From an uncultured Rikenellaceae bacterium (GTDB lineage: Bacteria; Bacteroidota; Bacteroidia; Bacteroidales; Rikenellaceae), in assembly GCA_910588925.1 (NCBI GenBank), contig CAJURV010000033.1, forward strand, positions 1-22,449: DNA of 22,449 bases, written 5' to 3'. This document shows, one piece after another, positions 1-22,449 of this stretch; positions within the stretch are counted from its first letter, which is position 1, and every line of letters begins with the position of its first letter. Below the pieces are notes generated by a model. That model worked only from the letters and a program-made list of their open reading frames with translations. It was not told the DNA's origin and searched no databases. The position numbers and the translations under genes are program-made.

Positions 1-57
1 TTCGATAAGCCGAGCGCAGAAGCAAATGAAATTTGATTATGCCGAGGCGAGAAAATG
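1..57 (+). repeat. Small hairpin element (~60 nt, REP/MITE-like), + orientation, truncated by window edge
   Basis: ttcgataagccgagcgcagaagcaaatgaaatttgattatgccgaggcgagaaaatg. Homologous copies occur at 15349-15414 (rc), 18361-18420 (rc), 18442-18497 (+) and 22329-22395 (+). Confidence 0.8.
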
Positions 58-88
58 TCTGCAATTAAGCGAACGAATATTCTTCAGA

Positions 89-138
89 CTGGCGAGACGG
101 TAAGATACTATAAAACACACTGAAGGTATGCGCATTAA
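89..138 (+). repeat. Repeat unit I (copy at window start), fused directly to element A
   Basis: ctggcgagacggtaagatactataaaacacactgaaggtatgcgcattaa. It is followed immediately by cattcGGCACGAGGG, which is the start of the ~300-nt element. Confidence 0.85.
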
Positions 139-146
139 ACAACACC

Positions 147-460
147 ATTCATTCGGCACGAGGGATGAGCGGGCCGCACCTCGCGGTGGGCATAAATTTC
201 CCCCAACGGAGGCCCGCGTAAGTTCCGGCAATCAGATACCTTTTCCGCTTATTTTACACCCGGCTATCTTCTCTGCCCGCCGCGAAGCGCGGTCTCCGCA
301 GGCTCCGGCCCTTGTGACGCCGGGCAATATACCGCCAAAAGTAACATCACTACGCGGTATAACTATCATAAGGAATCGTGTTCATTTCGTCCGGGAAAAA
401 GTTCAGCTAATGCGCATACCGTAAATATCCGAATAAATTCACCGTCTCGCAAACAACCAT
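147..460 (+). repeat. Conserved ~300-nt stem-rich element, copy A (candidate structured ncRNA or non-autonomous element)
   Basis: Shares five conserved blocks, in order, with 12036-12320: GGCACGAGGGATGAGCGGGCCG; CCCCCAACGGAGGCCCGC; CTCCGGCCCTTGTGACGCCGGGCAA; GGA(A/G)TCGTGT…TCCGG…AAAAGTTCAGCTAATGC(G/A)CATA(C/T)CGT; AAATTCACCG(T/C)C(T/C)CGCAAAC. The sequence between blocks differs by indels. GCGGGCC…GGCCCGC and CCGGC…GCCGG form stems that are conserved in both copies. Both copies lie immediately 3' of a minus-strand gene. Confidence 0.8.
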
Positions 461-542
461 CTCATGCACTGTCCGGCAAGATTCAACAAAAAAATAGCCG
501 GAAGAAATTCCCTCCCGACTATTAACTATCTTCTATCGGTAA

Positions 543-2135
543 CTATTTCTTAACTATAGGAGCCGCATCGTAATCGAACGACAAGGCATCGATCCACAGT
601 TTCGACCCGGTGGCACCGCAATATCTCTCGCCGTAAACGCTCGACGTGGCTACGAGCACTATATGCGTAGGCTTGATAGTGGTAGTGCGGTACTCGAGGT
701 TTATTACGAACTGCTGGTAGTCGGTAGTAGATGCGTCGGTCTTGAACTCGCCGTACGCTACTATGTCTCTGTCGGCCTCTTTGGGACGTGCCGTGGCTCC
801 GCGCCAGTTCTCCAGATAGATGTATATGTGGCACTTGTCCGTCTCGCCTACATGCTGGGAATCCTCCGGGAATTTGTTCTGATGATATACGTCGATAATA
901 CCCGGCTGATATATGTACCACCCGGAGAGCTTGGCGGGACGACCTGTGAACGGACGCCCGAACTTGGGACTGCTGCCGGGATCCTGGACATTGGTAATGA
1001 AATCTCCGGTAAACAGGTTACCTGCTGCGAGCGGCACCCCTATTGTCACCTTCTTGGTCTCCATATAGGCGGCATACCTGCCCTCCTTTACCTTGTCGGT
1101 GACAGGATAGGTGGCACCGTCGCTCACCATGGCTATACCATCGTTACCGGTAGCCCAATACGGCGCTCCACCTTCGGCGTACGGGAACCAGCAATCGTGA
1201 TTGTTCTTCCTCTTATTAAACCACTCCTCGAAGCTCATATTGGGTATATCCACCACGTCATCGGTGGTGAATGTCTGCTCCTGCCCCCTCTCGTCTCCGA
1301 GGAAAGGACGGCATACGTATTTGGTGCCGGGCTCCAGATCGGTCATCACGGCCGTCATGGTTCCTCCCTCCAACGACACATTGCCTATGTCGGTCTTGGA
1401 CCACACCTCGTCAACATCGCGCCGGTACTCGTAGCCCATCTCCTGATTGGAACCTACGGGCACATCCGCGGTAGCGGTAGCCGTCTTGGTCCACGCCACG
1501 AGGGTCTTGCCGTTGATAGTGAAATTGGCATGCTGGGCCGATACGCGCCACTGCTCCGTACGTCCGAACATGCTCACTTCGAAGACGGTACCGTCTCCCA
1601 AAAGGTCGTATTTACGCTCGTACGGGTCGGGAGTTATCACGGCATTGGCCGGCCCCAGCTCCATCTTGTCTATCCTGACAGACGTAAGAGGCTGCGACTT
1701 GGCCACAGTAACTATCGCCACACGGTTGACGGTATCTATGGAGGCGTTGCCTACCTGATTCTCAACGTTGACGATGTAGTTGACGTCCCATTTGGCGTCG
1801 ATAGTCCACTCGTAATCCTGCCATGTACGCAACGTACAACGGTAGGGACGGGACAGGTTGAGGTTCTCCGGCATTTCGGGCACCATCTCCGTGGAGTCGC
1901 TTATCTCGTAATATATCACCCTCACGTCCGTTATGTCGTGCTCGCCGTCCACAGTGAGGCTTACGGTTCGTTTCACGTTGTCGAACTCGCTTACGCCTAT
2001 CTGTCCCTCCACCTCGAACGCTTTGAAAGAGGGCTGCCTGTTGGGATAGGGTATGTCGTTGACGATACATCCGCCCAACGACAACATCGCCGCAACGATC
2101 GTCACAAGAGTAATGTATCCGTATGCCTGTCTCAT
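543..2135 (-). CDS. Surface lipoprotein with C-terminal PCMD-like domain (paralog 1 of 3)
   Basis: 530-aa ORF. The N-terminus MRQAYGYITLVTIVAAMLSLGGC has a signal peptide and lipobox Cys. The C-terminal ~200 aa (FGRPFTGRP...KPTHIVLVATSSVYG...GSKLWIDALSFD) is clearly homologous to the C-termini of the 700-aa and 723-aa ORFs upstream. An FN3-like strand motif (GTKYVCRPF...QTFTT) precedes it. The ATG overlaps the stop of the upstream gene (ATGA), so it is the last gene of the minus-strand operon. The name PCMD (PF13201) is from memory, not from a search. Confidence 0.8.
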   Translation of the reverse strand: MRQAYGYITLVTIVAAMLSLGGCIVNDIPYPNRQPSFKAFEVEGQIGVSEFDNVKRTVSLTVDGEHDITDVRVIYYEISDSTEMVPEMPENLNLSRPYRCTLRTWQDYEWTIDAKWDVNYIVNVENQVGNASIDTVNRVAIVTVAKSQPLTSVRIDKMELGPANAVITPDPYERKYDLLGDGTVFEVSMFGRTEQWRVSAQHANFTINGKTLVAWTKTATATADVPVGSNQEMGYEYRRDVDEVWSKTDIGNVSLEGGTMTAVMTDLEPGTKYVCRPFLGDERGQEQTFTTDDVVDIPNMSFEEWFNKRKNNHDCWFPYAEGGAPYWATGNDGIAMVSDGATYPVTDKVKEGRYAAYMETKKVTIGVPLAAGNLFTGDFITNVQDPGSSPKFGRPFTGRPAKLSGWYIYQPGIIDVYHQNKFPEDSQHVGETDKCHIYIYLENWRGATARPKEADRDIVAYGEFKTDASTTDYQQFVINLEYRTTTIKPTHIVLVATSSVYGERYCGATGSKLWIDALSFDYDAAPIVKK

Positions 2136-3298
2136 TGCTTTTCCATATTGGTTCTTATCGCCCTCTCGAAATCGTCCTCGGTGGCCTGACGGGCAGATTT
2201 GCGGAACTTGTAGTTGACCGGATTCAAACCTCGCATGGAGTTGATATAGAATGCCATACCGAGATTTATGGAGAAGAGGTCTATCTTGAAGTTGGCCGAA
2301 GTTCGCGAATGTTTACCGGTCTCCACCTGATTGGTTATCTGGTTTATGGTGTTGTATTTCAACCCTAAAACACCCACAGACACCTCCACGCCCACATTAT
2401 CCGTCACAAACGCCACTATACCCGGTGCTAACCCGAGCTGCAGGCTCCGTATCTTCTGGTAGGTACCCTTGACCTCCTCCTTAGAGCTGTTGACGAGCTT
2501 ACCCTGACCGCCGCCGTAGGTAAGACGCGTCTCGTTGAACAGACCTATACGCCTCTGCGTGCCGAGATTGATATAGTTACGTAAGAATAACGAAACATCG
2601 TACTGATGTTGTATATAGGTAAGGTCGTTAATGCCGAAACTAAGGTCGTCGTTGATCTTCAGATTGACGCTCCCAACGTCGGCGGATGTGCGCGAATAGA
2701 CCAAACGCGCGCCTAACGCAGTGTTGTCGGCCACGAAATAACCGATGAACGGACTCACCTTGAACATATAGGCGTCGAGGTTTATATCCTCCACTATCAA
2801 GAACTTATAGTTATCCTCGGTGTAATCCTGAAAAGATATGTTGCCGCCGACGAGCCACTGCCCCTTGGGTACGAACACGATCTGGTCTATCCCTCGGTCG
2901 AACGGATGGCTTCGTCCGCGCATCCAGTTGTTGGCACGCGCCGACTCGCGTTCGGCATAACGCTTGGCACGGTGTTGTTCGTTGCGCTCCTGCAACGGCG
3001 AGGAGATCACGTTACGAATGGTATCTATGCCATACATTCGCTCCTCTATTGCCTTGAGCCTCTGCTCCATCATGCGCGTAAGACTGTCGAGCGACGCCGG
3101 CATCACCGGCACGTAGACCGTGTCTCTGACAGCGACGACACCGGGCTCTTTAGCGCCCTTTACTACGACCGGCACTGAAACCATAGCGGTATCCGAAGCC
3201 ATAATCGATGCCTCCGCCGCCCGACAGATAGCGGGCGACAGAAGCAATATGGCGGCCGTAAGGCCCGTAAGGCCTTTTAGTGATTGCATAAATGACAT
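2132..3298 (-). CDS. Secreted beta-rich protein, putative outer-membrane beta-barrel, unknown function
   Basis: 388 aa. The N-terminal signal peptide MSFMQSLKGLTGLTAAILLLSPAICRAAEA has no canonical lipobox. A charged coiled segment (RLKAIEERMYGIDTIRNV...RAKRYAERESARANN) follows. The C-terminal 250 aa show alternating hydrophobic/polar strand-like segments (YMFKVSPFIGYFVADNTALGARLVYSRT; GIVAFVTDNVGVEVSVGVLGLKY; FKIDLFSINLGMAFYI). It is translationally coupled to both flanking lipoprotein genes (5-nt gap upstream, 4-nt overlap downstream). Confidence 0.55.
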   Translation of the reverse strand: MSFMQSLKGLTGLTAAILLLSPAICRAAEASIMASDTAMVSVPVVVKGAKEPGVVAVRDTVYVPVMPASLDSLTRMMEQRLKAIEERMYGIDTIRNVISSPLQERNEQHRAKRYAERESARANNWMRGRSHPFDRGIDQIVFVPKGQWLVGGNISFQDYTEDNYKFLIVEDINLDAYMFKVSPFIGYFVADNTALGARLVYSRTSADVGSVNLKINDDLSFGINDLTYIQHQYDVSLFLRNYINLGTQRRIGLFNETRLTYGGGQGKLVNSSKEEVKGTYQKIRSLQLGLAPGIVAFVTDNVGVEVSVGVLGLKYNTINQITNQVETGKHSRTSANFKIDLFSINLGMAFYINSMRGLNPVNYKFRKSARQATEDDFERAIRTNMEKQ

Positions 3299-3303
3299 TT
3301 TCG

Positions 3304-5406
3304 TTAATCGAAGAGCAACTCGAACTCGTCGATGTAGAGTGTGCTCCCCTCGCCGCCTATGAAGTCGGCGCCGTACACGCTCGATGTGGCTACGAACACT
3401 ATGTGCGTAGGCTTGATAGTGTTACCCTCGCCGTCTTTCTCAAGGGTGTATTTTATGTCGAAACCACCCTCGGTATATTCAGTGACGTTATCGGCCGTCT
3501 TGAACTCGCCGTAACCCACCACTACAGGGTTCGACGGACGTTCGGAGGTGCCGTCGGGCCACTTCTCGAGACTGATATACACGTGCATTCGGTCAGTCTC
3601 GCCTATGTGCGCATCACCCCTGTTAATGGTAGTAGGCGTATATTTGTAGAAGAAACGCAACCCCGAAGGACGACCGGTATAGGGACGACCGAAATGCGGA
3701 CTATCCTTAGGACTGGATAGGTTGGTCTCAAAATATCCGGTGAAGAGGTTTCCGGCCGCAAAAGTCTTTACGACTACGGCATTGACCCACAGCGACTGCA
3801 TACGTACTCCCCGGCCCTTATATGCTTCCGGCTCGTCTACAGGCGCGGTATTGGAATTGGTCACGATGGTCACTCCGGAGTTACCGGTATCCCAATACTG
3901 ATCCACTCCGTCACCCCACGGATTCCATGTCTTACCGCTCTGGCTCCACGAATCCATATTGAGGTTGGGAATAAGCACGATGTTCTCGGTAGTGAAGCTG
4001 ACCTCGTTGCCCTCTATATCGGCGGAGATCGGACGCACCCTGTATCTGGTATCCGGCTCCAACCCGCGTACGGTAGCGGTAAAGTTCTTACCGTCTATGG
4101 TTATGTCGCTCTCGGGCAAAACGGTCCACGTCTCGTCTGCATCCTTGCGATACTCGAACGTGAGCCCCTCGGGCTGCATACCGGACGTCCACTCGGCCTC
4201 CACGAGAGCGTATTTGGCGAACGCCTCCACCCTCCTGAGGGCAGTGTTGGCATTGGACGAACGTACATTTAGACACACCGTCTGCTCTACTAACTGGCAA
4301 TGGCTGTCGAGCATCATAAGAGTGATATTGTGTTCGCCCGTCTTCATCCCGGCAGTCATACCGCTGAAGTCGATGAAGCCGGAAGAGGTGCCGATACCTC
4401 CCCATCTGAGACCTATGGCATTGAGCGCCGCTACCGTGGCCTCGCCGGCGGTGGTGAGGTTTATGAACTCGGGAAGCCCCTGCGCCACCAGCGACTTATC
4501 GTAGTGAGTGACGTAGAGCAGATCGATACCGGCCTCGGCCTCCACATCTACGCGTGCCGGTACGCTCTCGCCGAACTCAATGAGCGTGAAGCCGTCCATG
4601 TCGAGGTCCGAAGACGAGAACCGCCCCATAGGGCAACGCCCCGGAGTTATCACTATATCGTGGTCGATATCGTCGGTGTTCGGGTCGACGGATATGGACG
4701 AGTGTATGCCGCCGTCGGTTATCTCGCCGCTCTCCGACACCTTGAATGTGAGTATGTAATGCTCTCTGGCCTTTACTCCGGTGATGGTCTTGCGCATCTT
4801 GTAAACAGTCCCCTGCTTGTTGACGAGATTCAATTCCCATGTCAACGAGCCCGGATCCTTGAAATAGCCGGAACGTATCTCCTCCTCCGAGAAAGTAAGC
4901 GAAGCCTTATTGCGGTTATTCTTAACGACAGCCTTATAATAGCTGAACGCCTCGGTGACGCTATGGTCGAAACGCACGCTCACCTTTACGTTGGCTATGC
5001 GGCAAACGAGATTAACCGTCGTAACCTTACCGGTCCTTATCTCGAACGTCTCGCGCCCTACCAGATACGGACTCTCCCAATCGTCGACATCCTTGCCGTT
5101 GGTGGCCACCGCCGTGTAGGTGCCGTTATCCAGCTCTATGACGTCGGGCATATCGTTGCTGTCTTCGAACGACATCACCGCATCGCCCTTCTCATCGAGG
5201 ATCTCCACACGATAAGTGTCCGGATCGGCGGCGTAAGAGACACGTTCCACTACGGATACATCCGAAGTGATACCCTTTATATACAACCGGCCTTTGTTAC
5301 CCACCGTATGCACCGTCGGATCATTGGTACACGAGGCGCACCACACGCACACCAGCGCGGTGATCAGAAGCGCCACACGGCGTCTTATATTGTCGAACGA
5401 TCTCAT
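3304..5406 (-). CDS. Large surface lipoprotein: DUF4493-like N-domain + FN3-like + PCMD-like C-domain (paralog 2)
   Basis: 700 aa. Signal peptide with lipobox (LVCVWCASC). Its N-terminal domain is homologous to the N-termini of the 416-aa and 723-aa ORFs (…NGTYTAVATNGKD…SPYLVGRETFEIRTGKVTTVNLVCRIANVKVSV). An FN3-like motif (TRYRVRPISADIEGNEVSFTT) is followed by a PCMD-like C-terminus (FGRPYTGRP…KPTHIVFVATSSVYG…GSTLYIDEFELLFD). Confidence 0.8.
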   Translation of the reverse strand: MRSFDNIRRRVALLITALVCVWCASCTNDPTVHTVGNKGRLYIKGITSDVSVVERVSYAADPDTYRVEILDEKGDAVMSFEDSNDMPDVIELDNGTYTAVATNGKDVDDWESPYLVGRETFEIRTGKVTTVNLVCRIANVKVSVRFDHSVTEAFSYYKAVVKNNRNKASLTFSEEEIRSGYFKDPGSLTWELNLVNKQGTVYKMRKTITGVKAREHYILTFKVSESGEITDGGIHSSISVDPNTDDIDHDIVITPGRCPMGRFSSSDLDMDGFTLIEFGESVPARVDVEAEAGIDLLYVTHYDKSLVAQGLPEFINLTTAGEATVAALNAIGLRWGGIGTSSGFIDFSGMTAGMKTGEHNITLMMLDSHCQLVEQTVCLNVRSSNANTALRRVEAFAKYALVEAEWTSGMQPEGLTFEYRKDADETWTVLPESDITIDGKNFTATVRGLEPDTRYRVRPISADIEGNEVSFTTENIVLIPNLNMDSWSQSGKTWNPWGDGVDQYWDTGNSGVTIVTNSNTAPVDEPEAYKGRGVRMQSLWVNAVVVKTFAAGNLFTGYFETNLSSPKDSPHFGRPYTGRPSGLRFFYKYTPTTINRGDAHIGETDRMHVYISLEKWPDGTSERPSNPVVVGYGEFKTADNVTEYTEGGFDIKYTLEKDGEGNTIKPTHIVFVATSSVYGADFIGGEGSTLYIDEFELLFD

Positions 5407-5490
5407 TATGATACTCTATTCGTTAATAACCCGAAGCCTTGGCTGACACGTACATGCGCCGCACCGCAGACTCCGAAAAGCCACGCGAGC

Positions 5491-6741
5491 TTAGTCCACC
5501 CTATTGATGGTAAGCGTAGCATTAGCCTCTTCGCCCTTGGCATCCACCAGTCTGATGTGGAATTTATGAACGTTTACGTCGAGCATACTCATGAACGCCC
5601 CAACCGAGAACGATGCGCTGGTAGCTCCAGCGATGGGATCTTCGCCTATAAGACCGAGACCCACGAAACCCTCCTTGAGGTTATCGTCGAGATTAGCTAT
5701 GTCGAAGCTGACGGGAATATTGAAGCTACCGAGTATATCTTCTGTCAGGTACGGCGAATCTATCTCCACGAACAGGTTGGCTATACCCTCCGGAGCGGCG
5801 AAATTAACCACTACCGATGCGCTCGAAGCCTGTGCCGTATTGAACACTAACGGGTTTGATATATTGAAACCTTTACCTTTTATGGTGGGCGCACTACCAT
5901 GCACATCGTCGTCCCACGGATTGTCGATATCGCCGAAATCGCTGCCGTCACCGTCGTCGCCACCCTCCTCGGGCACCGAAACGATATGGTCTTTGTCCGT
6001 CATCGAACCGTCTATCTTGATATTGAAATCGGCCTCGCCCACGCCCATGGCGCTGACATGGAAACGATGCAGCTGGTTGGCCTCGGTCTCGTCTATCATT
6101 ATAGTGTAGGTAAGGAGGCTACCTGTCTTCTTACTGAAACCCTTGGCGGTGACGCTGAGCGGACCCACCGAGAAGAAACCGTACCTCTCCGCACCGTCCG
6201 GCGTGAACACCAATGCGCTCTTTTCAGCACCGGCGTTAGCTTTGGCTATGGTGAGGGTACCGCCGTCGAGCTGCGATGCGAAGCTCTCGTCGAAATCGAC
6301 ATGCACCGCCACGTTATGCAGCTTGCAGAGCAGGTCTACTTCGTTGAGCTGACCGTCGTAAACGCCTATGCGCTCCTCGCCCTTGAAATGAGGACTGTCG
6401 AAACCGGCCAGCTTGACATTGCCGCTCTCGGCCGTTATGGTATAGCTGCCTTTGGCAATCTCCACAACCGGGGGCATATCCGCGTAACGCTCCCATGCGT
6501 AGAGAGCGGCACCGGTGGCGTTATCGGTGAGCGTCACCCTGAAATTATCTATGTCGGCCAATGCGGCGATGGCGTTCTCCTCCTCGGTGGCATAAGTTAC
6601 TATATTGACCCCCTCCGAAGAGAGACCTATCCTAAGGCTAAGACCGTGATCCCCGTCGGGATGCGACATCTCGTCGGTACAAGAGTATATGGATGCTACC
6701 CCTGCCATCACGGCGAATGCGTATGTAAAAATCTTTTTCAT
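5491..6741 (-). CDS. Lipoprotein with DUF4493-like N-domain, an acidic linker and no PCMD domain
   Basis: 416 aa. N-terminus MKKIFTYAFAVMAGVASIYSC. The N-domain motif (GSYTITAESGNVKLAGFDSPHFKGEERIGVYDGQLNEVDLLCKLHNVAV) aligns with the N-domains of the 700-aa and 723-aa paralogs. An acidic low-complexity linker is present (EEGGDDGDGSDFGDIDNPWDDD). Same strand and operon. Confidence 0.75.
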   Translation of the reverse strand: MKKIFTYAFAVMAGVASIYSCTDEMSHPDGDHGLSLRIGLSSEGVNIVTYATEEENAIAALADIDNFRVTLTDNATGAALYAWERYADMPPVVEIAKGSYTITAESGNVKLAGFDSPHFKGEERIGVYDGQLNEVDLLCKLHNVAVHVDFDESFASQLDGGTLTIAKANAGAEKSALVFTPDGAERYGFFSVGPLSVTAKGFSKKTGSLLTYTIMIDETEANQLHRFHVSAMGVGEADFNIKIDGSMTDKDHIVSVPEEGGDDGDGSDFGDIDNPWDDDVHGSAPTIKGKGFNISNPLVFNTAQASSASVVVNFAAPEGIANLFVEIDSPYLTEDILGSFNIPVSFDIANLDDNLKEGFVGLGLIGEDPIAGATSASFSVGAFMSMLDVNVHKFHIRLVDAKGEEANATLTINRVD

Positions 6742-6803
6742 AGTCGTTATATTTTAACGAAATATTTCATGAGGCTCTTGACGGTATCTGTCGAGAAAGC
6801 CCA

Positions 6804-8975
6804 TTAATCCTTTATCTCCGTATATATGAGTTCCACATTATCGACAGTGAGTACATTGCCGATGTATTTGCTGTCTTTGTAGCCCTGAAATGCACCCGCA
6901 GAACCTTTCACTGGATTCACGGACGGGCTGGCAGAAGAGGACGACACGAAAGCTATCTTTATGTGCGTGGTTTTCAAGCGCCTATTATCATAATCGAACT
7001 TAAGTGTCACAGTTTTAAAGTCACCGGCAGGAGTCTTTGCCACATCGGTATCCACCTGCGCACGTCCCAACTCGTTGACCGTACCGTCGGCGGCCCTGTG
7101 CTCCACTATGGCGTATGCGTCGAAGCTCTCGCCGTTTATCTGTGCGAATTTATACGCGAACTTCATTCCCTCGGGACGCGACGGGAACTGACGACCCATG
7201 TTTTCGGTACGACCGGCCAAATCGTAATCGCCTATGAACAACATGCCCGGGGTTATATTTTTCTTTATGCCGTCGGCACCAAATGGGAATGTCGACCCTC
7301 TACCCCAGTTGACTGTGCTTATCTCAGCCGCAAGACCGCTGACACCCTGTGCCGAGCGCGTGCCGGAATATTGGCAATAATAATTCGCCGTACCGGATCT
7401 GTCGCTGGTCGTCAACGCATTGCGCGTATCCCAATATTTGCTTGACGGGTCGTTATAATCGTAAGGGAATACTTCGAATATCTCTATGTTCATACCCGAA
7501 TTTTTGCCGTAGCACATCTGCTCGCTCCACCTCTCGAAGCCGGCATCGGGCACCTGCGCCGCCGTCTCCGTGGTAATGTCGATAGGTTCGCCGAAAGTGT
7601 GACCGTTATAAGCCATTCTCACCCTATAAGAGGTGTTGGGCGCGAAACCCCACGATTTAAGATCGACTCTGTCGCCATCCTCGCTTACAGTACGGCTCTC
7701 GGACAGATCTTCCCATCTGCCGTTTCGGTATATCTGCGTGGAGAACTTGGCAGGATTGGCATCGGCGACGGTGGCCCCGGTCTCTATGTGGGTGGCCCAT
7801 GCGGCGCCCTCGAACGGAAGCCATTCGAACGTAGCCCCGTTGGTTTGAGCCGTGTACACGTCGCTATCTACGCTCTGCCCCAAACCGTCGGTAACCCTCA
7901 GAGAGAAAGCGTGTTCGCCCGCTTCGAGCAAGCCGAGTGTACCGCTCAGATCGACCGTGCCGGAGATATTGTCGGTCATGTCGTCCCATTTCAGAGAGTC
8001 GCGCCGAACTATATTTTTGGTCTGCGTATCTATAGTGAGCAGGTCGAATTCGGCAGGCCATCCGCGTCCGAGCAACGTGGGAGAGTTAACCTTGACTATG
8101 CACTCGCGTATCTGCCCCGGAGCGAATATACCGATGCGGGCATCGTGCGAGAAGCCGTCGGTGTAGGTCACCCTCTTGTCGGCGCCGAAACCTGTGGCCG
8201 TATAGACGGGCGCGGGCTTGGGCGTCATTAACTTGGGTATCTCGAAGACAAGCTCCTTGTCGTCGGTGGAGAGATCTTTGGTTATATCGAGCGAAAAAGA
8301 GCCGTTCTCGCTACGCAAAAAGAGCGTTATATGATCGCCCGGAGCCACATCCTTAATGGTGGGGGGAATATAGACCTTGTCCTCGCCGTCGGCATTGGTG
8401 TAAGAGATGCGGAAACGCACGTCGGCAGGGGGAGCGAATGCCGAACGCTCCTCGTCCGAAGCGAAAGTAAGACGCTGTTCGGAGGTGTAGAGCAAAACGC
8501 TGTAGTCGCTATGTGCAGACTTGAAATCGTCCTCGGCGACCACGGATATGCACACGTTACGGAGCTTTGCCGTGACGGTGACGGGCGTGACCTGTCCGGC
8601 CTTTATCTCCACCGGAGTCTCGCCGTAATAATAGGGTTTGGCAAAGCCTACTTTGGTAGAATCGCCGTAGAAAGCGACCACTTTATGGTTACCGCTACGC
8701 ACCTTGCCGTTACCGATAAGGTCGGAATAACGATTCCATTTCTTAATGAGCGTCTCGCCGGAATATACCAGAAGTCTGAAATTGCCGAGAGTGGTGCCCC
8801 ACGGGTCTATCGCCGCATTAAGATCGCTCACCTCCCCTGAAGAATAAGAGACCAGAGACAATCCTATCTCGCCGTCGAGACCCTCTTTCTCTTGACCGCC
8901 GTTCTCGAACTGACTGCATCCTGCAAAGACCAAGGCCAGAAACGACAGCGATATCAAAGTAAATTTTTTATCCAT
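6804..8975 (-). CDS. Large surface lipoprotein, first gene of operon (paralog 3): DUF4493-like N-domain + FN3-like + divergent PCMD-like C-domain
   Basis: 723 aa. N-terminus MDKKFTLISLSFLALVFAGCSQFENGG has a canonical lipobox followed by a polar/acidic stretch, typical of surface-exposed Bacteroidetes lipoproteins. The N-domain is homologous to those of the 416-aa and 700-aa ORFs. An FN3-like motif (TSYRVRMAYNGHTFGEPIDITT) is present. The C-terminus (RQFPSRPEGMKFAYKF…KTTHIKIAFVSSSSASP…GNVLTVDNVELIY) is a diverged PCMD-like domain. Confidence 0.75.
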   Translation of the reverse strand: MDKKFTLISLSFLALVFAGCSQFENGGQEKEGLDGEIGLSLVSYSSGEVSDLNAAIDPWGTTLGNFRLLVYSGETLIKKWNRYSDLIGNGKVRSGNHKVVAFYGDSTKVGFAKPYYYGETPVEIKAGQVTPVTVTAKLRNVCISVVAEDDFKSAHSDYSVLLYTSEQRLTFASDEERSAFAPPADVRFRISYTNADGEDKVYIPPTIKDVAPGDHITLFLRSENGSFSLDITKDLSTDDKELVFEIPKLMTPKPAPVYTATGFGADKRVTYTDGFSHDARIGIFAPGQIRECIVKVNSPTLLGRGWPAEFDLLTIDTQTKNIVRRDSLKWDDMTDNISGTVDLSGTLGLLEAGEHAFSLRVTDGLGQSVDSDVYTAQTNGATFEWLPFEGAAWATHIETGATVADANPAKFSTQIYRNGRWEDLSESRTVSEDGDRVDLKSWGFAPNTSYRVRMAYNGHTFGEPIDITTETAAQVPDAGFERWSEQMCYGKNSGMNIEIFEVFPYDYNDPSSKYWDTRNALTTSDRSGTANYYCQYSGTRSAQGVSGLAAEISTVNWGRGSTFPFGADGIKKNITPGMLFIGDYDLAGRTENMGRQFPSRPEGMKFAYKFAQINGESFDAYAIVEHRAADGTVNELGRAQVDTDVAKTPAGDFKTVTLKFDYDNRRLKTTHIKIAFVSSSSASPSVNPVKGSAGAFQGYKDSKYIGNVLTVDNVELIYTEIKD

Positions 8976-9314
8976 ATCACAACCCTTTCATACATTCGTG
9001 CGCCGTATCGAGCAAAGCGACGCATAAACTCTTTTTCAAGGAGCGAATGCTCTTTAGGTTATCTCATTCAGGCAGACGTGTACACACTGACTGCCAACTA
9101 CTTCGACACACCGCTATCACAACGGCGACACAGGTCGAAGCGATTTTCCACTAATAATGGAATTTGACAAATGTATAAACTTTTCCTTTCCGCACAAAAT
9201 TTTCAGCCTTTTTTCGACATCCGTACCCCGCCCCGGAAACATAACCGCAGAAGAATACCGACGAAAGAACGACCATTTTATTCGAATGAAAATGCAACTT
9301 GGGAGAAAATTTAT

Positions 9315-9322
9315 TACCTTTG
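9315..9322 (+). promoter_or_regulatory. Candidate Bacteroidetes sigma-A -7 element (TAccTTTG) upstream of aspA
   Basis: tacctttg matches the TAnnTTTG consensus about 85 nt upstream of the aspA ATG. I found no clean -33 TTTG. Approximate coordinates. Confidence 0.35.
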
Positions 9323-9407
9323 TAGGTGTTTACTTTTTAGTCCCGATGATCGGGATACCGCCACTAATGGCGATTACTCGGGAATCGATCATTAAATTAT
9401 TATAGTT

Positions 9408-10847
9408 ATGGCAATAACAGACCAGAAATTATCGGGTCAGACGAGAGTCGAACACGACCTGCTCGGCGACAAGAACATTCCCGTCGAATACTATTTCGGC
9501 GTACAGACCATGCGTGCCATGGAGAACTTCCACATCAGCCGCGTAAGGCTCAACATGTACCCCGTTTTCATCAAAGCGCTGGCTATGGTGAAACAGGCTG
9601 CAGCGGAAGCTAACTGCGAGCTCGGCATACTCAAGCCCGAAATACGCGACGCCATCGTGGCCGCTTGTAAAGAGGTGCGCGAAGGCAAGTTCGACGACCA
9701 TTTCGTAGTAGACATGGTACAAGGCGGCGCCGGCACATCTACCAACATGAATGCCAACGAGGTGATCGCCAACCGTGCCCTCGAGCTGATGGGCCACAAG
9801 AAAGGCGAATACAAATACTGCCATCCCAACAACCACGTCAACCTGTCGCAGTCTACGAATGACGCCTATCCCACATCGGTGCGCGTGGCTCTTCTCAACC
9901 GCACCCGCGACCTTGTCGACGCACTCAAGGTATTGGTAGAGGCATTCCGTGCCAAAGGCGAAGAGTTCGCCGATGTCATCAAGATGGGCCGCACTCAGAT
10001 GCAGGACGCAGTGCCCATGACCCTCGGACAGGAGTTCGGGGCATACGCTGCCACCCTGTCTGAAGAGATAGAACGCCTCGAGAACAACGTACGTCTGTTC
10101 CTCGAAGTAAACATGGGTGCCACTGCCATCGGTACCGGTATCAACTCCGATCCCGACTACACCCCCACCTGTATCAAATATCTATGCGAGATCACCGGCA
10201 TGCCTATGGTAGCCGCCGGCAACATGATCGAAGCGACCAACGATACCGGCGCGTTCATCATGTACTCATCGGCTGTCAAACGTCTGGCCGTCAAGCTATC
10301 TAAGATAAGCAACGACCTTCGCTTGCTCTCGTCAGGTCCTCGCACCGGTTTCAACGAGATCAACCTGCCTCCCATGCAACCCGGTTCTACCATCATGCCC
10401 GGCAAGGTCAACCCCGTCATACCCGAGGTAGTGAGCCAGATAGCATTCAAGGTGATAGGCAACGACCTCACGGTAACGATGGCGGTAGAGGCCGCACAGC
10501 TCGAGCTTAACGCTATGGAGCCCATCATTGTGCAGGCACTCTTCGAAAACATCGAAATGCTTATCAACGGCATGAACACACTCCGCGAAAGATGTATCGT
10601 AGGCATCACCGCCAACAAAGAGCGTTGCCGCCAAATGGTTTACAACAGCATAGGTTTGGTTACGGCTCTCAACCCCTACCTCGGTTACGAAGTATCTACC
10701 GAGCTGGCGAAAGAGGCCCTCGAAAACAATAAAGGCGTGTACGACCTGGTTCTCGAAAAAGGGCTCATGTCGAAAGAAGAACTCGACAACGTACTCCGCC
10801 CCGAGAACATGGTAAAACCCCGCAAGTTCATCGGCAAGAACGTTTAA
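9408..10847 (+). CDS. aspA: Aspartate ammonia-lyase (aspartase)
   Basis: 479 aa. This is a fumarase/aspartase-family protein with the GSTIMPGKVNP signature. It aligns along its whole length with E. coli AspA as I recall it (DLRLLSSGPRTGFNEINLP, FKVIGNDLTVTMA, GITANKERC, YNSIGLVTALNP). It is clearly closer to aspartase than to FumC. Confidence 0.9.
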   Translation: MAITDQKLSGQTRVEHDLLGDKNIPVEYYFGVQTMRAMENFHISRVRLNMYPVFIKALAMVKQAAAEANCELGILKPEIRDAIVAACKEVREGKFDDHFVVDMVQGGAGTSTNMNANEVIANRALELMGHKKGEYKYCHPNNHVNLSQSTNDAYPTSVRVALLNRTRDLVDALKVLVEAFRAKGEEFADVIKMGRTQMQDAVPMTLGQEFGAYAATLSEEIERLENNVRLFLEVNMGATAIGTGINSDPDYTPTCIKYLCEITGMPMVAAGNMIEATNDTGAFIMYSSAVKRLAVKLSKISNDLRLLSSGPRTGFNEINLPPMQPGSTIMPGKVNPVIPEVVSQIAFKVIGNDLTVTMAVEAAQLELNAMEPIIVQALFENIEMLINGMNTLRERCIVGITANKERCRQMVYNSIGLVTALNPYLGYEVSTELAKEALENNKGVYDLVLEKGLMSKEELDNVLRPENMVKPRKFIGKNV

Positions 10848-10863
10848 CATCTTTATACATATA

Positions 10864-10915
10864 AATATCGGAGGCTGCATCCTTAAAGAAGATGCAGCCT
10901 CCGATATTTATATGT
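10864..10915. terminator. Intrinsic terminator after aspA
   Basis: Perfect ~17-bp stem aatATCGGAGGCTGCATC / GATGCAGCCTCCGATatt with a 9-nt loop, followed by ttatatgtat, starting 17 nt after the aspA stop. Approximate coordinates. Confidence 0.75.
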
Positions 10916-11137
10916 ATATGGTTGTACCTCCCGGCAGCCACTTGGTGAAGGTGATTTGTCGAGTGGCAAAGTACCAGAAACAATGGACTTTCAGAAGTAC
11001 ACGATATGCAGTAAAGCAAAAAAAATAAAGATGAACACTTTAGTACATCATGCTACTAATTATATACATAATGCGACTCATGAAAATCTAATTATGTTAT
11101 AATTTCGAGACAAAAGGTTCGGCATTTACGCTACCGA

Positions 11138-11188
11138 CTGGCGAGACGATAAAAACACCTCACAACTTCCCAAAGCTATGCGCATTGA
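11138..11188 (+). repeat. Repeat unit I (copy a): CTGGCGAGACG…(C)TATGCGCATTGA
   Basis: A ~50-nt unit beginning CTGGCGAGACG(A/G)TAA and ending with the palindromic core ATGCGCAT plus a T(T/G)A flank. Copies occur at 89-138, 11138-11188, 11271-11320 and 22091-22140. Confidence 0.85.
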
Positions 11189-11270
11189 CTGAAACGCTCT
11201 CGCTCCGTATCAGGAGCGCAACACAAGACTTGCGCTTCTTTAGAAGTGCAAAGTATAGTACACAATTCCG

Positions 11271-11320
11271 CTGGCGAGACGATAAGATACTACAAAATAC
11301 ACTGAAAGTATGCGCATTAA
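11271..11320 (+). repeat. Repeat unit I (copy b)
   Basis: ctggcgagacgataagatactacaaaatacactgaaagtatgcgcattaa is about 85% identical to the copies at 89-138 and 22091-22140. Confidence 0.85.
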
Positions 11321-11549
11321 CAAATACATCCATGCGGCACGGGGTGCCGCTCCGCAATAACCTCCACGAATTAACAGAACAGAGGTTGGGAAACTCCCCG
11401 GCGAAACAAAAAAGACATCGGAGCTTAACGACATGCGCATTAACCGCAAGTCGCAGGCATGCTAGCCCGTGTACACAACTAAAGACCGCAGGGCGCCGAA
11501 GTTTTTTAGACCTCAAAAATCGTCGATCGCGGTCGTGTGCCTCGGAGCG
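11321..11549 (+). repeat. Repeat unit II (hairpin-rich ~230-nt module), unoccupied version
   Basis: Colinear with 22141-22449 at roughly 80% identity. Shared segments include catgcGGCACgggGTGCCgctccgc (7-bp hairpin), acatgcgcattaaccgcaagtcgcaggcatgc, gaccgcagggcgccgaa and tttttagacctcaaaaatcgtcgatcgcgg. This copy lacks the 67-nt insert present in the 22141-22449 copy. Confidence 0.8.
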
Positions 11550-12035
11550 TACTCGATGTACGTGAGGATGGCTCACGAACGGGATCGGCGATTTTTGTGG
11601 CTAAAAAGCGACGGAAACAGCCCCACGTTAACCGAACCTCGCGCACACAAACCGACAATTCATGCGTTCAGAGATCGCGTACTTCCTAAACTTCACTAAA
11701 ACTTCCTACACGTACGACCCGAACCTATAAAATCCCTAACGCGTCCCCGAAGGGGATGCACCTGCACGAGCAATACAAAAACGTCCCCAACAAAAACAAA
11801 CGGTACTAAAGCGGAAACGATATGAACTTCCAACTACACTAAACACAACTGCGAAAGACAAGGCACAGAAAGCAACCTAACAACGACCGACCAAAACGCC
11901 GTAAGGCGTACACGCCCGAGCGAAGTGAGGGGCATAAATACGAACAAGCAGATTCAAACACGCCGTAAGGCGTACTAATGTTAGCAAAAAGCCCGAGCGA
12001 AGCGAGAGCAATCAAACACAACTTCCGCCGTTAAA

Positions 12036-12320
12036 TCCCGAGGCACGAGGGATGAGCGGGCCGGAGCCTCCCCCAACGGAGGCCCGCTTATACGGTTGGT
12101 TATTTATAGTATTTATCGCCTTTTTATATAAAATCACTCTCTCGAATGTCACACTCGAGCGGTCCCCCGCATGCTCCGGCCCTTGTGACGCCGGGCAAGG
12201 TATCGCTAAAATCCATGTAAACCACATAATAATAGGAGTCGTGTCAATTCCATCCGGCGAAAAGTTCAGCTAATGCACATATCGTCAAGATAGAGAAAAT
12301 TCACCGCCCCGCAAACCGTC
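12036..12320 (+). repeat. Conserved ~300-nt stem-rich element, copy B
   Basis: See copy A. Same block order and orientation. A different AT-rich insertion lies between blocks 2 and 3. The element ends about 35 nt before the pgi terminator hairpin. Confidence 0.8.
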
Positions 12321-12352
12321 TGACGAAGACACGAAAGCCCTCATTCTCACCC

Positions 12353-12385
12353 AATAATAAAAAAGGGGGTACCTGCCCCCTATCC
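12353..12385 (-). terminator. Intrinsic terminator of the gpsA-pgi operon
   Basis: On the minus strand, GGGGGcaggtaCCCCC is followed by TTTTTTATTATT, immediately after the pgi stop codon. Confidence 0.75.
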
Positions 12386-12389
12386 TTAA

Positions 12390-13748: not shown

Positions 13749-13813
13749 AAGTTATGTTTTATTTATCGGATCGAGCCTGAAACCCAGTGCAAATATCGGG
13801 CCTACCCGACCAA

Positions 13814-15307: not shown

Positions 15308-15348
15308 CACCTGCATGCAACGGAAAAACGTTCGCTTCGATGCAGATG

Positions 15349-22090: not shown

Positions 22091-22140
22091 TTGGCGAGAC
22101 GGAAAGATACTATAAAACACACTAAAGGTATGCGCATTAG
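22091..22140 (+). repeat. Repeat unit I (copy c)
   Basis: ttggcgagacggaaagatactataaaacacactaaaggtatgcgcattag. Confidence 0.85.
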
Positions 22141-22449
22141 CAAAAGCCATACATGCGGCACGTGGTGCCGCTCCGCGATAACCGCTACGAATTAACCCGA
22201 CAGAGGTCGGGGAAGCCGCTTGCGAGCAAATACCATCACTTCACACCCAAAGACATGCGCATTAACCGCAAGTCGCAGGCATGCTTGCCCTAGCACACAA
22301 CCGCAGCCCGCAGGGCGCCGAACTTTTTCGGTAAGCCGAGCGCAATGAAACGAAGTTTCGATTGCCGAGGCGAGAAAAAGTGCGCGAAGCGAAGCTTTTT
22401 AGACCTCAAAAATCGTCGATCGCGGGCGTGCGCCTCCGGAGCTAATGTG
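22141..22449 (+). repeat. Repeat unit II, occupied version (carries nested small element), truncated by window end
   Basis: Colinear with 11321-11549. This copy contains an extra 67 nt at 22329-22395. Confidence 0.8.
22329..22395 (+). mobile_element. Nested insertion of the small hairpin element inside repeat unit II, flanked by a TTTTT duplication
   Basis: Unoccupied site at ~11495: gcgccgaaGTTTTTTagacctc. Occupied site: gcgccgaaCTTTTT-[cggtaagccgagcgcaatgaaacgaagtttcgattgccgaggcgagaaaaagtgcgcgaagcgaagc]-TTTTTagacctc. The empty-site/filled-site pair and the repeated TTTTT are consistent with a target-site duplication. Confidence 0.55.

What the first reader, a model, noticed from the sequence alone, without database searches (positions are those of the whole stretch)
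147..460. Conserved ~300-nt stem-rich element, twice in the window, each time directly 3' of a minus-strand gene. Candidate novel structured RNA or non-autonomous element
Copies at 147-460 and 12036-12320 share five ordered sequence blocks at >90% identity. They differ by large indels in between.
- Helix 1 (GCGGGCC…GGCCCGC) and helix 2 (CCGGC…GCCGG) are retained in both copies even though their loops differ.
- In copy B an inner CCTCC…GGAGG helix is visible.

This pattern, conserved stems around variable loops and insert positions, is what a functional RNA looks like. It is also what terminal domains of a non-autonomous transposon look like.

Both copies sit just beyond the 3' end of a gene on the opposite strand: the PCMD lipoprotein gene ending at 543, and pgi ending at 12390. 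Read on the minus strand they would be 3'-UTR elements of those genes.

The element start GGCACG(A/G)GG is also the start of unit II (catgcGGCACGGGGtgcc), so the two cargo modules share a junction with unit I.
Basis: partly seen in the sequence, partly recalled or inferred. Interest (0 to 1): 0.75.

Follow-up and report, generated by a model that had tools for sequence, protein, structure and literature searches.

The report
Modular intergenic repeat family in Rikenellaceae
The two look-alike 300-base stretches are copies of a non-coding, modular repeat that is scattered through the intergenic regions of an uncultured gut Rikenellaceae bacterium and keeps being reshuffled by recombination; there is no solid evidence that it is a folded functional RNA.

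Summary
147-460 and 12036-12320 share ordered blocks at 81-100% identity, and a shared 22-mer occurs twice where none is expected.

The coordinates capture only part of the object. The family unit is about 364 nt, as shown by the tandem array in L026. The long form is a non-coding composite of about 1 kb (window 11271-12316). It is bounded by inverted copies of a two-box module, TGGCGAGACGGT…GGTATGCGCATTA ("unit I"). Blocks 4-5 of the finding are the reverse complement of unit I.

- Copy A fits an internal-deletion derivative: other strains carry the 993-nt form at the same locus.
- Copy B is a crossover product of a tandem pair that other strains still have.
- The "variable" spacer is a swapped alternative module.
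- The family sits at non-orthologous sites in two species. It is absent from syntenic sites in relatives, and from the plasmid, phage and viral collections searched.

Support for a structured RNA is weak. There is no Rfam match. Folding z-scores run from -1.4 to +0.5. The 17 close copies show no compensatory pairs. Helix 2 is broken in most copies. Orientation to neighbouring genes is mixed. Both flanking genes have their own terminators.

One diverged homologue does keep the two core hairpins through compensatory changes.

Verdict: selfish or mobile mosaic repeat, mobilising enzyme unknown.

The parts
89..145 (+). Unit I, the left inverted terminal module of copy A. It has two boxes: TGGCGAGACGGT (90-101) and GGTATGCGCATTA (125-137).
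   Evidence: Three copies at 86-88% identity (family D1). It aligns with the reverse complement of blocks 4-5. ATGCGCAT occurs 7 times in the window against 0.6 expected, and every occurrence lies in repeat modules.
155..217 (+). Copy A core: block 1, helix 1 (169-175 with 211-217) carrying the 'long-loop' insert, and block 2.
   Evidence: CM R1 hit at 139-219, 53.6 bits.
218..288 (+). Copy A spacer, alpha-like variant. This is one of two alternative modules in the family.
   Evidence: The family alignment shows two discrete spacer classes. The module is swapped between orthologous copies L040 and L044.
289..340 (+).
   Evidence: (D10). Helix 2 is not conserved in the family. Block 3 is the crossover point in copy B and the L040/window homology switch point.
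397..456 (-). Blocks 4-5 of copy A. This is an inverted copy of the unit I module, forming the right terminal inverted module.
   Evidence: alignment and two-box scan (450->408 on the minus strand).
493..523 (-). Terminator-like hairpin plus T-run of the PCMD gene. It lies between the stop codon (543) and copy A.
11131..11190 (+). Degenerate extra unit I module, upstream of the long composite.
   Evidence: (D14).
11271..11327 (+). Unit I, the left terminal module of the full-length composite at the pgi locus.
11322..11580 (+). Unit II. It starts with the hairpin GCGGCACGGGGTGCCGC. It also contains a third unit-I-like box pair (about 11396-11445) and a long imperfect palindrome (about 11497-11615).
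   Evidence: (D4, D5, D9).
11586..11990 (+). A/C-rich interior of the composite, with small hairpins (GCCGTAAGGC twice; GTCCCCGAAGGGGAT). It is 85% identical to the interior of the third composite beyond the window end.
   Evidence: AT skew reaches +0.70. The metagenome copies L022, L024, L025 and L027 also carry part of it.
11991..12041 (+). 5' part of the family unit that the finding's coordinates miss. It comprises hairpin M1 (GCCCGAGCGAAGCGAGAGC, 11991-12009), AATCAAACACAAC and TTCCGCCGTTAAATCCCGA. The last of these includes the 5' arm of hairpin P1 (ATCCC, pairing with GGGAT).
   Evidence: Tandem array of period 364 in L026. Family alignment. CM R1 structure.
12042..12320 (+). Copy B: blocks 1-2 (short-loop type), beta spacer, block 3, and blocks 4-5.
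   Evidence: It is a recombinant of the tandem pair L012a plus L012b, with the crossover in GCGGTCCCCCGCA.
12262..12316 (-). Blocks 4-5 of copy B. This is the inverted unit I module and forms the right end of the composite of about 1,046 nt (11271-12316).
12364..12381 (-). Terminator-like hairpin plus T-run of pgi. It lies between the stop codon (12390) and copy B.
22091..22449 (+). Unit I (22091-22147) plus unit II of a third composite. The composite runs off the window, and its element copy C lies at about 22960-23165 in extended coordinates.

Best explanation
The element is one module set of a lineage-restricted, non-coding, modular intergenic repeat family. In kind it is selfish DNA of the MITE / REP-BIME / BOX type.

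**Forms of the family**
- The basic unit is about 364 nt. It runs: hairpin M1; a linker; a conserved double-hairpin core of about 65 nt (P1 ATCCC/GGGAT, then helix 1 with a C-rich loop); a spacer that exists as alternative modules (alpha or beta); block 3; and an inverted copy of the two-box 'unit I' module.
- A longer form of about 1 kb is bounded by unit I in inverted orientation at both ends.

**Shown**
- Copies sit at different, non-orthologous intergenic sites, mostly between convergent genes.
- They occur singly or in tandem arrays.
- They are continually remodelled by homologous recombination:
  - unequal crossover between tandem units produced copy B;
  - gene conversion swaps the spacer module.

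**Fits the data, but not a single demonstrated step**
- Copy A looks like a deletion between the short direct repeats GGCACGRGG.

**Inferred**
- The family spreads, or once spread, by trans-mobilisation.
- The enzyme is unidentified. It would recognise either the inverted terminal two-box modules (a DDE-type route) or the folded hairpin core as single-stranded DNA (an HUH or integrase-type route).
- The strong sequence conservation of the core reflects that recognition, helped by gene-conversion homogenisation, rather than an RNA function for the host.
For: **Multicopy and dispersed**
- There are 3 copies within 33 kb of this genome.
- A fourth, diverged copy lies downstream of the PagL gene (L039:15560-15730).
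- There are 9 further metagenome contigs with unrelated flanking housekeeping-type ORFs (read by eye from translations; no family search was run on them).
- A tandem array of 2.7 units, period 364, 94% matches, occurs in L026.
- Many assemblies break inside the element.

**Not coding**
- Local ORFs have no Pfam match.
- The ORF starting at the block-1 ATG varies from 9 to 78 aa, changes frame between copies, and loses its start codon in L026a and L026b.

**Inverted terminal modules**
- Unit I aligns with the reverse complement of blocks 4-5. The two boxes are conserved at a fixed spacing.

**Lineage-specific gain**
- Five species-level relatives sampled at pgi loci show no BLAST or nhmmer match.
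- The syntenic Band_7-Epimerase spacer is 228 nt in a relative against 1,431 nt here, with no module in the relative.
- The L037 species has about 345 nt containing two diverged units where the relative L052 has a 40-nt hairpin.

**Recombination shown directly**
- Copy B matches L012a on the 5' side (96%) and L012b on the 3' side (98%). The two matches overlap in block 3.
- L040, L041, L044 and L047 carry a 993-nt composite at the PCMD locus. The window has the 368-nt form there, with the same flanks.
- L040 and L044 are about 99% identical across the composite, apart from a spacer of about 70 nt that is swapped (35% identity) and a 65-nt indel.

**No match elsewhere**
- No match in the plasmid, phage or viral collections.
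- No exact match to two conserved ~21-22-nt words in the species-representative genomes.
Against: - No target-site duplication is visible at the ends of copy A, the pgi composite, the L040 composite or the L037 insertion.
- No transposase or recombinase gene lies next to any copy in the loci examined.
- In tandem arrays each unit carries only one unit-I-like module, in inverted orientation. Arrays are therefore not simple TIR-bounded MITEs.
- The most conserved part, the core, is internal rather than terminal. It is nearly invariant among copies whose neighbouring spacers differ by about 15% within a class. That points to a sequence-level constraint that mobility alone need not explain.
- A diverged homologue keeps both core hairpins by compensatory change. 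That is equally what a functional RNA would show.
- No actual transposition event was observed. Every polymorphism seen is explained by recombination.
Confidence: 0.6

Rival explanations
1. A family of small or medium non-coding RNA genes, or RNA domains. The conserved double-hairpin core (P1 plus helix 1, with the C-rich CCUCCCCCAAC loop) would be the functional part, for example a C-rich seed loop that pairs with G-rich targets. The spacers would be tolerated variable regions, and tandem arrays would be gene duplications.
For: - The core is nearly invariant in about 20 copies, while the flanking spacers diverge.
- The L037 homologue in another species keeps P1 (UCCC/GGGA becomes GGCU/AGCC, 3 pairs changed on both sides) and helix 1 (G-C becomes A-U). 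It also retains the loop pattern GARGYAYGA.
- On the CM alignment, 4 both-sided changes are seen against 0.3 expected, with 0 of 500 shuffles reaching that count.
- The one-sided changes are C->U, giving G-U pairs on the + strand.
Against: - All four compensatory changes come from one sequence, and that sequence was aligned by a structure-aware model.
- There are 0 compensatory pairs among the 17 close copies.
- Folding z-scores are -1.4 to +0.5 for the core and -1.2 to +0.2 for whole elements.
- No Rfam match.
- No conserved Bacteroidetes-type promoter (TAnnTTTG) and no terminator is positioned consistently.
- Copies are truncated at different 3' positions (winC, L024, L025, L026c, L030, L031b).
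- Helix 1 and helix 2 are broken without compensation in decayed copies.
- Orientation relative to flanking genes is mixed.
- Hairpin conservation is equally expected for single-stranded DNA recognition sites.
Confidence: 0.15
2. Host-domesticated architectural or regulatory DNA, analogous to the proposed functions of BIMEs. The hairpins and the palindromic ATGCGCAT box would serve as binding sites for a nucleoid, gyrase-type or transcription-factor protein, or as back-up terminators or insulators between convergent genes.
For: - Seven of about 12 loci place the element's 3' end facing the 3' end of a convergent gene.
- The palindromic box TATGCGCATTA recurs 7 times in the window against 0.6 expected.
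- On the minus strand, M1 followed by T-runs resembles a terminator in several copies.
Against: - Related species with the same gene pairs manage without it.
- The copies are polymorphic among strains: deleted, duplicated or module-swapped.
- The flanking genes already have their own terminators.
- Placement between convergent genes is also the neutral expectation for any tolerated insertion.
Confidence: 0.1
3. A cis-acting 3'-UTR element of pgi and of the PCMD lipoprotein gene, read on the minus strand.
For: Both in-window copies lie 37-48 nt beyond the terminator hairpins of minus-strand genes.
Against: - The terminator-like hairpins with T-runs lie between the stop codons and the elements.
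- pgi genes of relatives (92-82% aa identity) lack the element.
- Other copies sit next to unrelated genes, or upstream of co-directional genes.
- Strains differ in copy structure at the same gene.
Confidence: 0.03
4. A repeated small-peptide or type I toxin-antitoxin-like locus, compared from memory with the E. coli LDR repeats. The beta-spacer copies encode MSGPEPPPTEARLYGWLFIVFIAFLY…, a short hydrophobic peptide.
For: - The units are tandem and a few hundred nt long.
- The ORFs in winB, L024, L021 and L027 look hydrophobic.
Against: - ORF length runs from 9 to 78 aa.
- There is a premature stop in L012a, and the start codon is lost in L026a and L026b.
- The alpha and long-loop variants shift the reading frame, so block 3 is read in different frames.
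- Substitutions show no third-position bias, as read directly from the sequences.
- The hydrophobic look follows from the T-rich composition of the spacer.
Confidence: 0.02

Closest known systems
BIMEs / REP elements of Enterobacteria and Pseudomonas (REPINs, mobilised by RAYT HUH transposases)
   Same: - Non-coding and confined to intergenic regions.
- Built from short GC-rich hairpins plus other motifs, combined as mosaics.
- Often found between convergent genes.
- Copies occur in clusters.
- No target-site duplication.
- Family-specific to a narrow lineage.
   Different: - The units here are much longer: about 364 nt, rising to 1 kb for the composite, against 20-40 nt REPs.
- No GTAG or CGTC tag was recognised.
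- No RAYT gene was seen.
- Copy number per genome is unknown.
BOX elements of Streptococcus pneumoniae (modular boxA-boxB(n)-boxC)
   Same: - A modular architecture with ordered, conserved modules.
- Variable module content and copy number between loci.
- Non-coding, with potential for stem-loops.
   Different: - No sequence relation.
- The modules here include alternative (alpha or beta) spacers and inverted terminal two-box modules.
- The units are larger.
MITEs such as Correia/NEMIS (Neisseria) or bcr1 (Bacillus cereus group)
   Same: - Terminal inverted modules: unit I against blocks 4-5, starting 5'-TG.
- A short form that fits an internal-deletion derivative of a longer form.
- Dispersed, polymorphic among strains, and non-coding.
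   Different: - No target-site duplication was detectable.
- The inverted modules are long (about 55 nt), bipartite and only 60-70% identical.
- Tandem arrays carry only one terminal module per unit.
- No parent IS is known.
IS200/IS605-family non-autonomous elements (PATEs) and TnpB/IscB omega-RNAs
   Same: - Hairpin-rich, with no target-site duplication.
- Conserved hairpins that could be read as folded single strands.
   Different: - No tnpA, tnpB or iscB ORF is adjacent to any copy.
- No Rfam family, HEARO included, matches even at E<=10.
- No conserved flanking tetranucleotide.
- Inverted terminal modules are present here, and IS200/IS605 elements lack them.
Integron attC arrays (CALINs)
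   Same: - Tandem units.
- A conserved hairpin whose structure is kept while the stem sequence changes (L037).
- A GTTAAAT motif resembling the attC core GTTRRRY lies just upstream of P1.
   Different: - The GTTRRRY-like motif is not conserved (GTCCCAT, GTTACAT and GTTGAAT in other copies).
- There are no cassette ORFs.
- No matching inverse core site, and no integrase, was found nearby.

Membership tests
Curated structured RNA family (Rfam) | Match to a covariance model at or near the gathering score | tested here: not met
   The only window hit at gathering score is tRNA-Leu. At E<=10, nothing relevant turns up in 1-560 or 10850-12400. The only hits are chance miRNA-like matches to the palindrome at 10850-10923.
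Novel structured RNA | Secondary structure supported by compensatory base changes across copies | tested here: inconclusive
   - Among the 17 close copies, 0 of 19 RNAalifold pairs are compensatory.
- Adding the L037 homologue gives 4 pairs changed on both sides (0 of 500 shuffles reach this). All four come from one CM-aligned sequence.
Novel structured RNA | Folding energy clearly below that of shuffled sequence | tested here: not met
   z-scores are -1.23 and -1.24 (copy A, + and - strands), -0.46 and +0.23 (copy B) and -1.39 to +0.53 (68-nt core). With DNA parameters they are -0.3 to -1.3.
Novel structured RNA | Own promoter and terminator, or a constant orientation relative to a regulated gene | tested here: not met
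   - No conserved TAnnTTTG -7 box lies in or before the element on either strand.
- No consistent terminator.
- About 7 loci are convergent with a neighbouring gene and about 4-5 are co-directional.
Novel structured RNA | A stable transcript of defined size | not testable with these tools
   No expression data are available.
MITE (non-autonomous DDE transposon) | Terminal inverted repeats | tested here: met
   Unit I (89-145; 11271-11327) aligns with the reverse complement of blocks 4-5 (397-456; 12262-12316). The conserved boxes are T(G/T)GCGAGACGGT and GGTATGCGCATTA.
MITE (non-autonomous DDE transposon) | Target-site duplication flanking the element | tested here: not met
   The flanks share no direct repeat. 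Copy A: …CTTCAGAC| and |AACAACCATC. pgi composite: …AATTCCGC| and |CGTCTGACGA. L040 composite and L037 insertion likewise.
MITE (non-autonomous DDE transposon) | Multiple dispersed copies, with presence/absence polymorphism at orthologous sites | tested here: met
   - At least 14 loci.
- Absent at the syntenic sites L049 and L052.
- Long versus short form at the PCMD locus.
MITE (non-autonomous DDE transposon) | A cognate autonomous IS with the same ends | not testable with these tools
   - No transposase ORF turned up in the loci examined.
- No match in plasmids, phages or viral contigs.
REP/BIME (RAYT-associated) | Short GC-rich imperfect palindromes combined into mosaics | tested here: met
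   M1 (GCCCGAGCGAAGCGAGGGC), GCCGTAAGGC, GCGGCACGGGGTGCCGC, P1 and helix 1 occur in ordered mosaics.
REP/BIME (RAYT-associated) | A RAYT (Y1 HUH) gene flanked by the repeats, and more than 100 copies per genome | not testable with these tools
   Only about 43 kb of this genome could be read. No Y1 transposase lies in it.
TnpB/IscB omega-RNA or IS200/IS605 end | Location at the 3' end of, or overlapping, a tnpB or iscB gene | tested here: not met
   No such ORF is next to any copy. HEARO and the other Rfam models give no match.
3'-UTR cis element of pgi / PCMD gene | Lies inside the transcript (before the terminator) and travels with the gene in relatives | tested here: not met
   Terminator-like sites at 493-523 and 12364-12381 precede the elements. 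The pgi loci L032-L038 have no BLAST or nhmmer match downstream of pgi; the only family copy there (L037/L038) lies elsewhere, between ABC-3 and a small ORF.

The most novel reading that the evidence does not exclude
The conserved double-hairpin core of about 65 nt is a functional folded nucleic-acid module. It comprises P1, with the loop GARGYAYGA, and helix 1, with the C-rich loop CCUCCCCC…GGAGG.

It could work in one of two ways:
- as the recognition structure of a so far undescribed trans-acting mobilisation system for non-coding elements of about 0.4-1 kb in Rikenellaceae; or
- as a new multicopy sRNA with a C-rich seed loop that has hitch-hiked on a mobile repeat.

The compensatory changes in the L037 homologue, and the near-invariance of the core while neighbouring spacers diverge, are what keep this reading open.
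Probability: 0.15. Interest if true: 0.6.

Novelty: new member of a known kind. Interest (0 to 1): 0.3.

Why it matters
If the main reading holds, this is a further example of lineage-specific mosaic repeats, in a family (Rikenellaceae) where a single literature search found none described.

Its practical importance is modest.
- It explains why MAG contigs of this species break at these sites.
- It shows that the repeats are hotspots for deletion, duplication and gene conversion. An unrelated ~76-nt repeat family marks the breakpoints of an 18-kb inversion among strains.
- It warns against reading 'conserved blocks around variable inserts' as RNA structure when the copies are young paralogues.

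It would matter more if the conserved hairpin core proved to be the handle of an unknown mobilisation enzyme, or a real sRNA.

Tried and rejected
- **Rfam.** Gathering and E<=10 modes gave nothing relevant.
- **Exact-pattern scans.** Species-representative genomes, two patterns: 0 hits. Metagenomes with the block-3 22-mer: 0 hits. The block-1 21-mer gave 11 loci, of which L023 and L029 are chance matches in high-GC DNA. Viral contigs: 0 hits. Plasmid and phage BLAST in distant mode: no match.
- **Coding hypothesis.** No Pfam match for ORFs 128-424, 11160-11576 and 11185-11565. The ORF starting at block 1 is not conserved in length, frame or start codon.
- **Long-range helix.** CACGAGGG (block 1) could pair with CCCTTGTG (block 3). 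It is paired in 92.6% of cells, but shows no both-sided change and does not beat the shuffles. Partition functions predict it in only about 5 of 14 copies.
- **Bacteroidetes-type promoter scan (TAnnTTTG).** No conserved site lies in the element.
- **Target-site duplications and a conserved flanking tetranucleotide.** None found.
- **attC-like reading of GTTAAAT.** The motif is not conserved among copies.
- **Literature.** No paper was found on Rikenellaceae MITEs or on the sequencing runs.
- **Precise empty-site boundaries for the third composite.** The intergenic sequence of the syntenic relative L049 is too diverged to align.
Full report
**Observation**

The two stretches are true repeats. 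Aligning 100-560 with 11990-12400 gives ordered identical or near-identical blocks separated by unalignable stretches. The repeat finder reports the same blocks: D8 at 81% and D10 at 89%. A 22-mer from block 3 occurs exactly twice, against none in 100 shuffles. Helix 1 and helix 2 are present in both copies, and the inner CCTCC/GGAGG helix in copy B, at the coordinates listed under 'parts'. The neighbouring minus-strand genes are a PCMD-domain protein (543-2135) and pgi (12390-13748). The organism is an uncultured Rikenellaceae bacterium, going by the names that sources give to the closest pgi and flotillin homologues. Independent ENA, NCBI and Logan assemblies reproduce the window at 99.96% identity, so it is not an assembly artefact.

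**What the object really is**

Extending the window with L001 and L011 and comparing it with itself shows three things.
- The element is embedded in a larger repeat landscape.
- A composite at 11266-12087(+12158-12211) recurs at 22086-23006(+23076-23128) with 80-92% identity.
- A third element copy (C) therefore lies just past the right end of the window. It is truncated after block 3, and its helix 2 is broken.

A block-1 21-mer retrieved nine real metagenome contigs (L021, L022, L024-L028, L030, L031), each carrying one to three copies next to unrelated housekeeping-type ORFs (read by eye from the translations; no family search was run on them). L026 holds a tandem array of 2.7 units with period 364 and 94% matches. 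That array defines the family unit:
- hairpin M1 (GCCCGAGCGAAGCGAGGGC);
- AATCAAACACAAC;
- TTCCGCCGTTAAATCCCGA;
- blocks 1-2;
- a spacer;
- block 3;
- blocks 4-5.

The finding's copy B therefore starts about 45 nt too late. In copy A the 5' part is replaced by 'unit I'.

The 18-copy alignment shows that the 'variable' parts are not free-running. The loop of helix 1 comes in a short form and a long form. The spacer between blocks 2 and 3 comes in two discrete classes, alpha and beta, each conserved within its class. The 3' part is truncated at a different position in winC, L024, L025, L026c, L030 and L031b.

**Inverted terminal modules**

Blocks 4-5 are the reverse complement of unit I (89-145, 11271-11327, 22091-22147; a degenerate copy at 11131-11190). 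Two boxes, T(G/T)GCGAGACGGT and GGTATGCGCATTA, are conserved about 20-25 nt apart. ATGCGCAT occurs 7 times in the window against 0.6 expected, always inside these modules. So copy A with its unit I (89-456, 368 nt) and the long composite (11271-12316, about 1,046 nt) are both bounded by inverted copies of one module. No direct duplication flanks any of them.

**Recombination, shown directly**

1. At the pgi locus, strains L012, L014, L015, L042, L043 and L048 carry two tandem units. The first is the short-loop, beta-spacer type, and the second is the long-loop, alpha-spacer type. The window-type strains (L011, L013, L039, L045, L046) carry a single unit. Its 5' part matches the first tandem unit (96%) and its 3' part matches the second (98%). 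The two matches overlap in GCGGTCCCCCGCA of block 3. Copy B is therefore an unequal-crossover product.
2. At the PCMD locus, L040, L041, L044 and L047 (92-96% identical in the operon) carry a full 993-nt composite (L040:6925-7917) between the same flanks. The window has the 368-nt form there. The short form equals the long form with the segment between two GGCACGRGG direct repeats removed; compare 11336 and 12042 in the window. Copy A also differs from L040 in loop and spacer type, so gene conversion is needed as well.
3. L040 and L044 are about 99% identical across the PCMD gene and the composite, with two exceptions. One is a sharply bounded spacer of about 70 nt between blocks 3 and 2: 35% identity, beta in L040 and alpha in L044. 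The other is a 65-nt M1-type repeat.

**Distribution**

BLAST and nhmmer find no match in the pgi loci of five related lineages (L032-L038; pgi 92-82% aa identity). In a relative with conserved synteny (184-aa gene, Band_7, Epimerase, PagL; locus L049), the Band_7-Epimerase spacer is 228 nt and holds no module. Here it is 1,431 nt.

A covariance model of the 68-nt core (R1) then found a diverged homologue in one relative: L037:6620-6684, 37.8 bits. A second, long-loop unit lies about 150 nt upstream of it. Together they occupy about 345 nt between orf55 and ABC-3. The relative L052 has only a 40-nt hairpin between the same alignable flanks. Contigs of the L037 species also break at this spot. 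The family therefore exists in at least two species-level lineages, at non-orthologous sites, and is missing from syntenic sites in their relatives. Nothing similar exists in the plasmid, phage or viral collections.

**Tests of the RNA reading**

- There is no Rfam match.
- Whole-element z-scores are -1.23 and -1.24 for copy A and -0.46 and +0.23 for copy B. The 68-nt core gives -1.39 to +0.53 as RNA and -0.27 to -1.29 as DNA.
- RNAalifold on the 17 copies keeps helix 1, a short inner helix and two weak long-range helices. It finds zero compensatory pairs, with a covariation term of +0.19.
  - helix 1: 98.8% paired, but invariant;
  - inner helix: 97.6% paired, with only one-sided C->U changes;
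  - helix 2: 58.8% paired, with its fourth pair G-C in 3 of 17 copies.
- A candidate block 1 / block 3 helix does not beat the controls and is predicted in only some copies.
- No conserved Bacteroidetes-type promoter is present.
- Both minus-strand genes have terminator-like hairpins before the element.
- Orientation to neighbouring genes is mixed.
- The ORF that starts in block 1 is not conserved.

There is one positive signal. In L037, hairpin P1 (UCCC…GGGA becomes GGCU…AGCC) and the closing pair of helix 1 (G-C becomes A-U) are kept through both-sided changes, while the P1 loop keeps the pattern GARGYAYGA. On the CM alignment this gives 4 both-sided changes against 0.3 expected, with 0 of 500 shuffles reaching that count. 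All four come from one sequence aligned by a structure-aware method. Hairpin maintenance is also expected for single-stranded DNA recognition sites.

**Conclusion**

The best-supported account is a lineage-restricted, non-coding, modular repeat family of the selfish-DNA kind.
- Shown: it is multicopy and dispersed; it is gained or lost between close relatives; it ends in inverted modules; it forms tandem arrays; recombination remodels it.
- Inferred: it is mobilised in trans by an unidentified enzyme that reads either the terminal two-box modules or the folded core.

The near-invariance of the core and the L037 compensations leave a real but minority chance that the core is a functional folded RNA. 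Such an RNA would not be a 3'-UTR element of pgi or the PCMD gene.

There is no statistically robust covariation among the copies, and many copies are truncated at differing positions. Transcript data are lacking.

Noticed in passing
window 1-75 (continuing about 82 nt to the left in L001), 15325-15405, 18360-18479, 22319-22389: A separate MITE-like repeat of about 76 nt (TTTTCGATAAGCCGAGCGCA…TGCCGAGGCGAGAAAACG, with inverted CGTTTTC-type ends). It occurs in both orientations and as a tandem pair at the left end of the window. At 22329-22389 it is a clean insertion into unit II relative to 11497-11506, with CGAAG(C)TTTTT-like sequence on both sides.
   Followed up: partly
window about 76-18419 versus L040, L041, L044 and L047: Strains of the L040 type have the PCMD operon plus its composite joined directly to window 18420 onward. 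The 18.3-kb segment carrying the PCMD operon, fumarase-type lyase, pgi, gpsA, bla-like gene, ABC-3 and tRNA-Leu is therefore inverted relative to the window. The breakpoints coincide with the 95%-complementary inverted 76-nt repeats at 1-58 and 18360-18417. The L040 junction (ATATTCGTTCG|TTTTTATGCAG) lacks the 76-nt repeat.
   Followed up: partly
window 15116-15307; also about 3.2-3.3 kb left of the window start (L001:15343-15484): Three tandem 73-nt repeats, each carrying a perfect Bacteroidetes-type promoter (TTTG…N19…TATCTTTG), sit upstream of the beta-lactamase-like gene. The same repeat is found upstream of a G3P-acyltransferase gene. It is homologous, in inverted orientation, to the left half of the 76-nt repeat. 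This looks like a propagated 'mobile promoter'. The called length of the bla-like gene varies among strains (267, 439 or 480 aa).
   Followed up: no
window 11250-12050: There is a strong strand asymmetry in the composite interior. AT skew reaches +0.70 and GC skew falls to -0.45, giving an A/C-rich plus strand punctuated by short GC hairpins (GCCGTAAGGC twice; GTCCCCGAAGGGGAT). The asymmetry is conserved in the second composite. It is unexplained.
   Followed up: no
window 11497-11615: A long imperfect palindrome lies inside unit II: CGAAGTTTTTTAGACCTCAAAAATCGTCGATCGCGG … GATCGGCGATTTTTGTGGCTAAAAAGCGACGG. Its interior is replaced in the third composite. It may be another nested foldback element.
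   Followed up: no
window 10847-10925: A 35-bp near-perfect inverted repeat lies directly after the fumarase-type lyase gene. It is a large bidirectional terminator-like hairpin, and it accounts for all the spurious miRNA-family hits in the Rfam E-value search.
   Followed up: no
L039:15560-15730 (window species, downstream of the PagL gene): A decayed fourth family copy. Its M1 stem has flipped (GCCC/GGGC becomes GGCC/GGCC). Helix 1 is broken without compensation (GGCCCGC becomes GGGGCG).
   Followed up: partly
window 543-8975: A cluster of four paralogous DUF4493 / PCMD-domain lipoprotein-like genes plus an OMP beta-barrel-like gene. Gene content varies between strains: the second gene is 356, 384-388 or 385 aa.
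   Followed up: no
L001-L020 and L054-L063 contig ends: Many short-read contigs from independent samples end inside or right next to the element. Examples are L007, L008, L010 and L016, and every Logan contig of the L037 species about 170 nt after orf55. This is indirect evidence that the family is multicopy in both species.
   Followed up: partly
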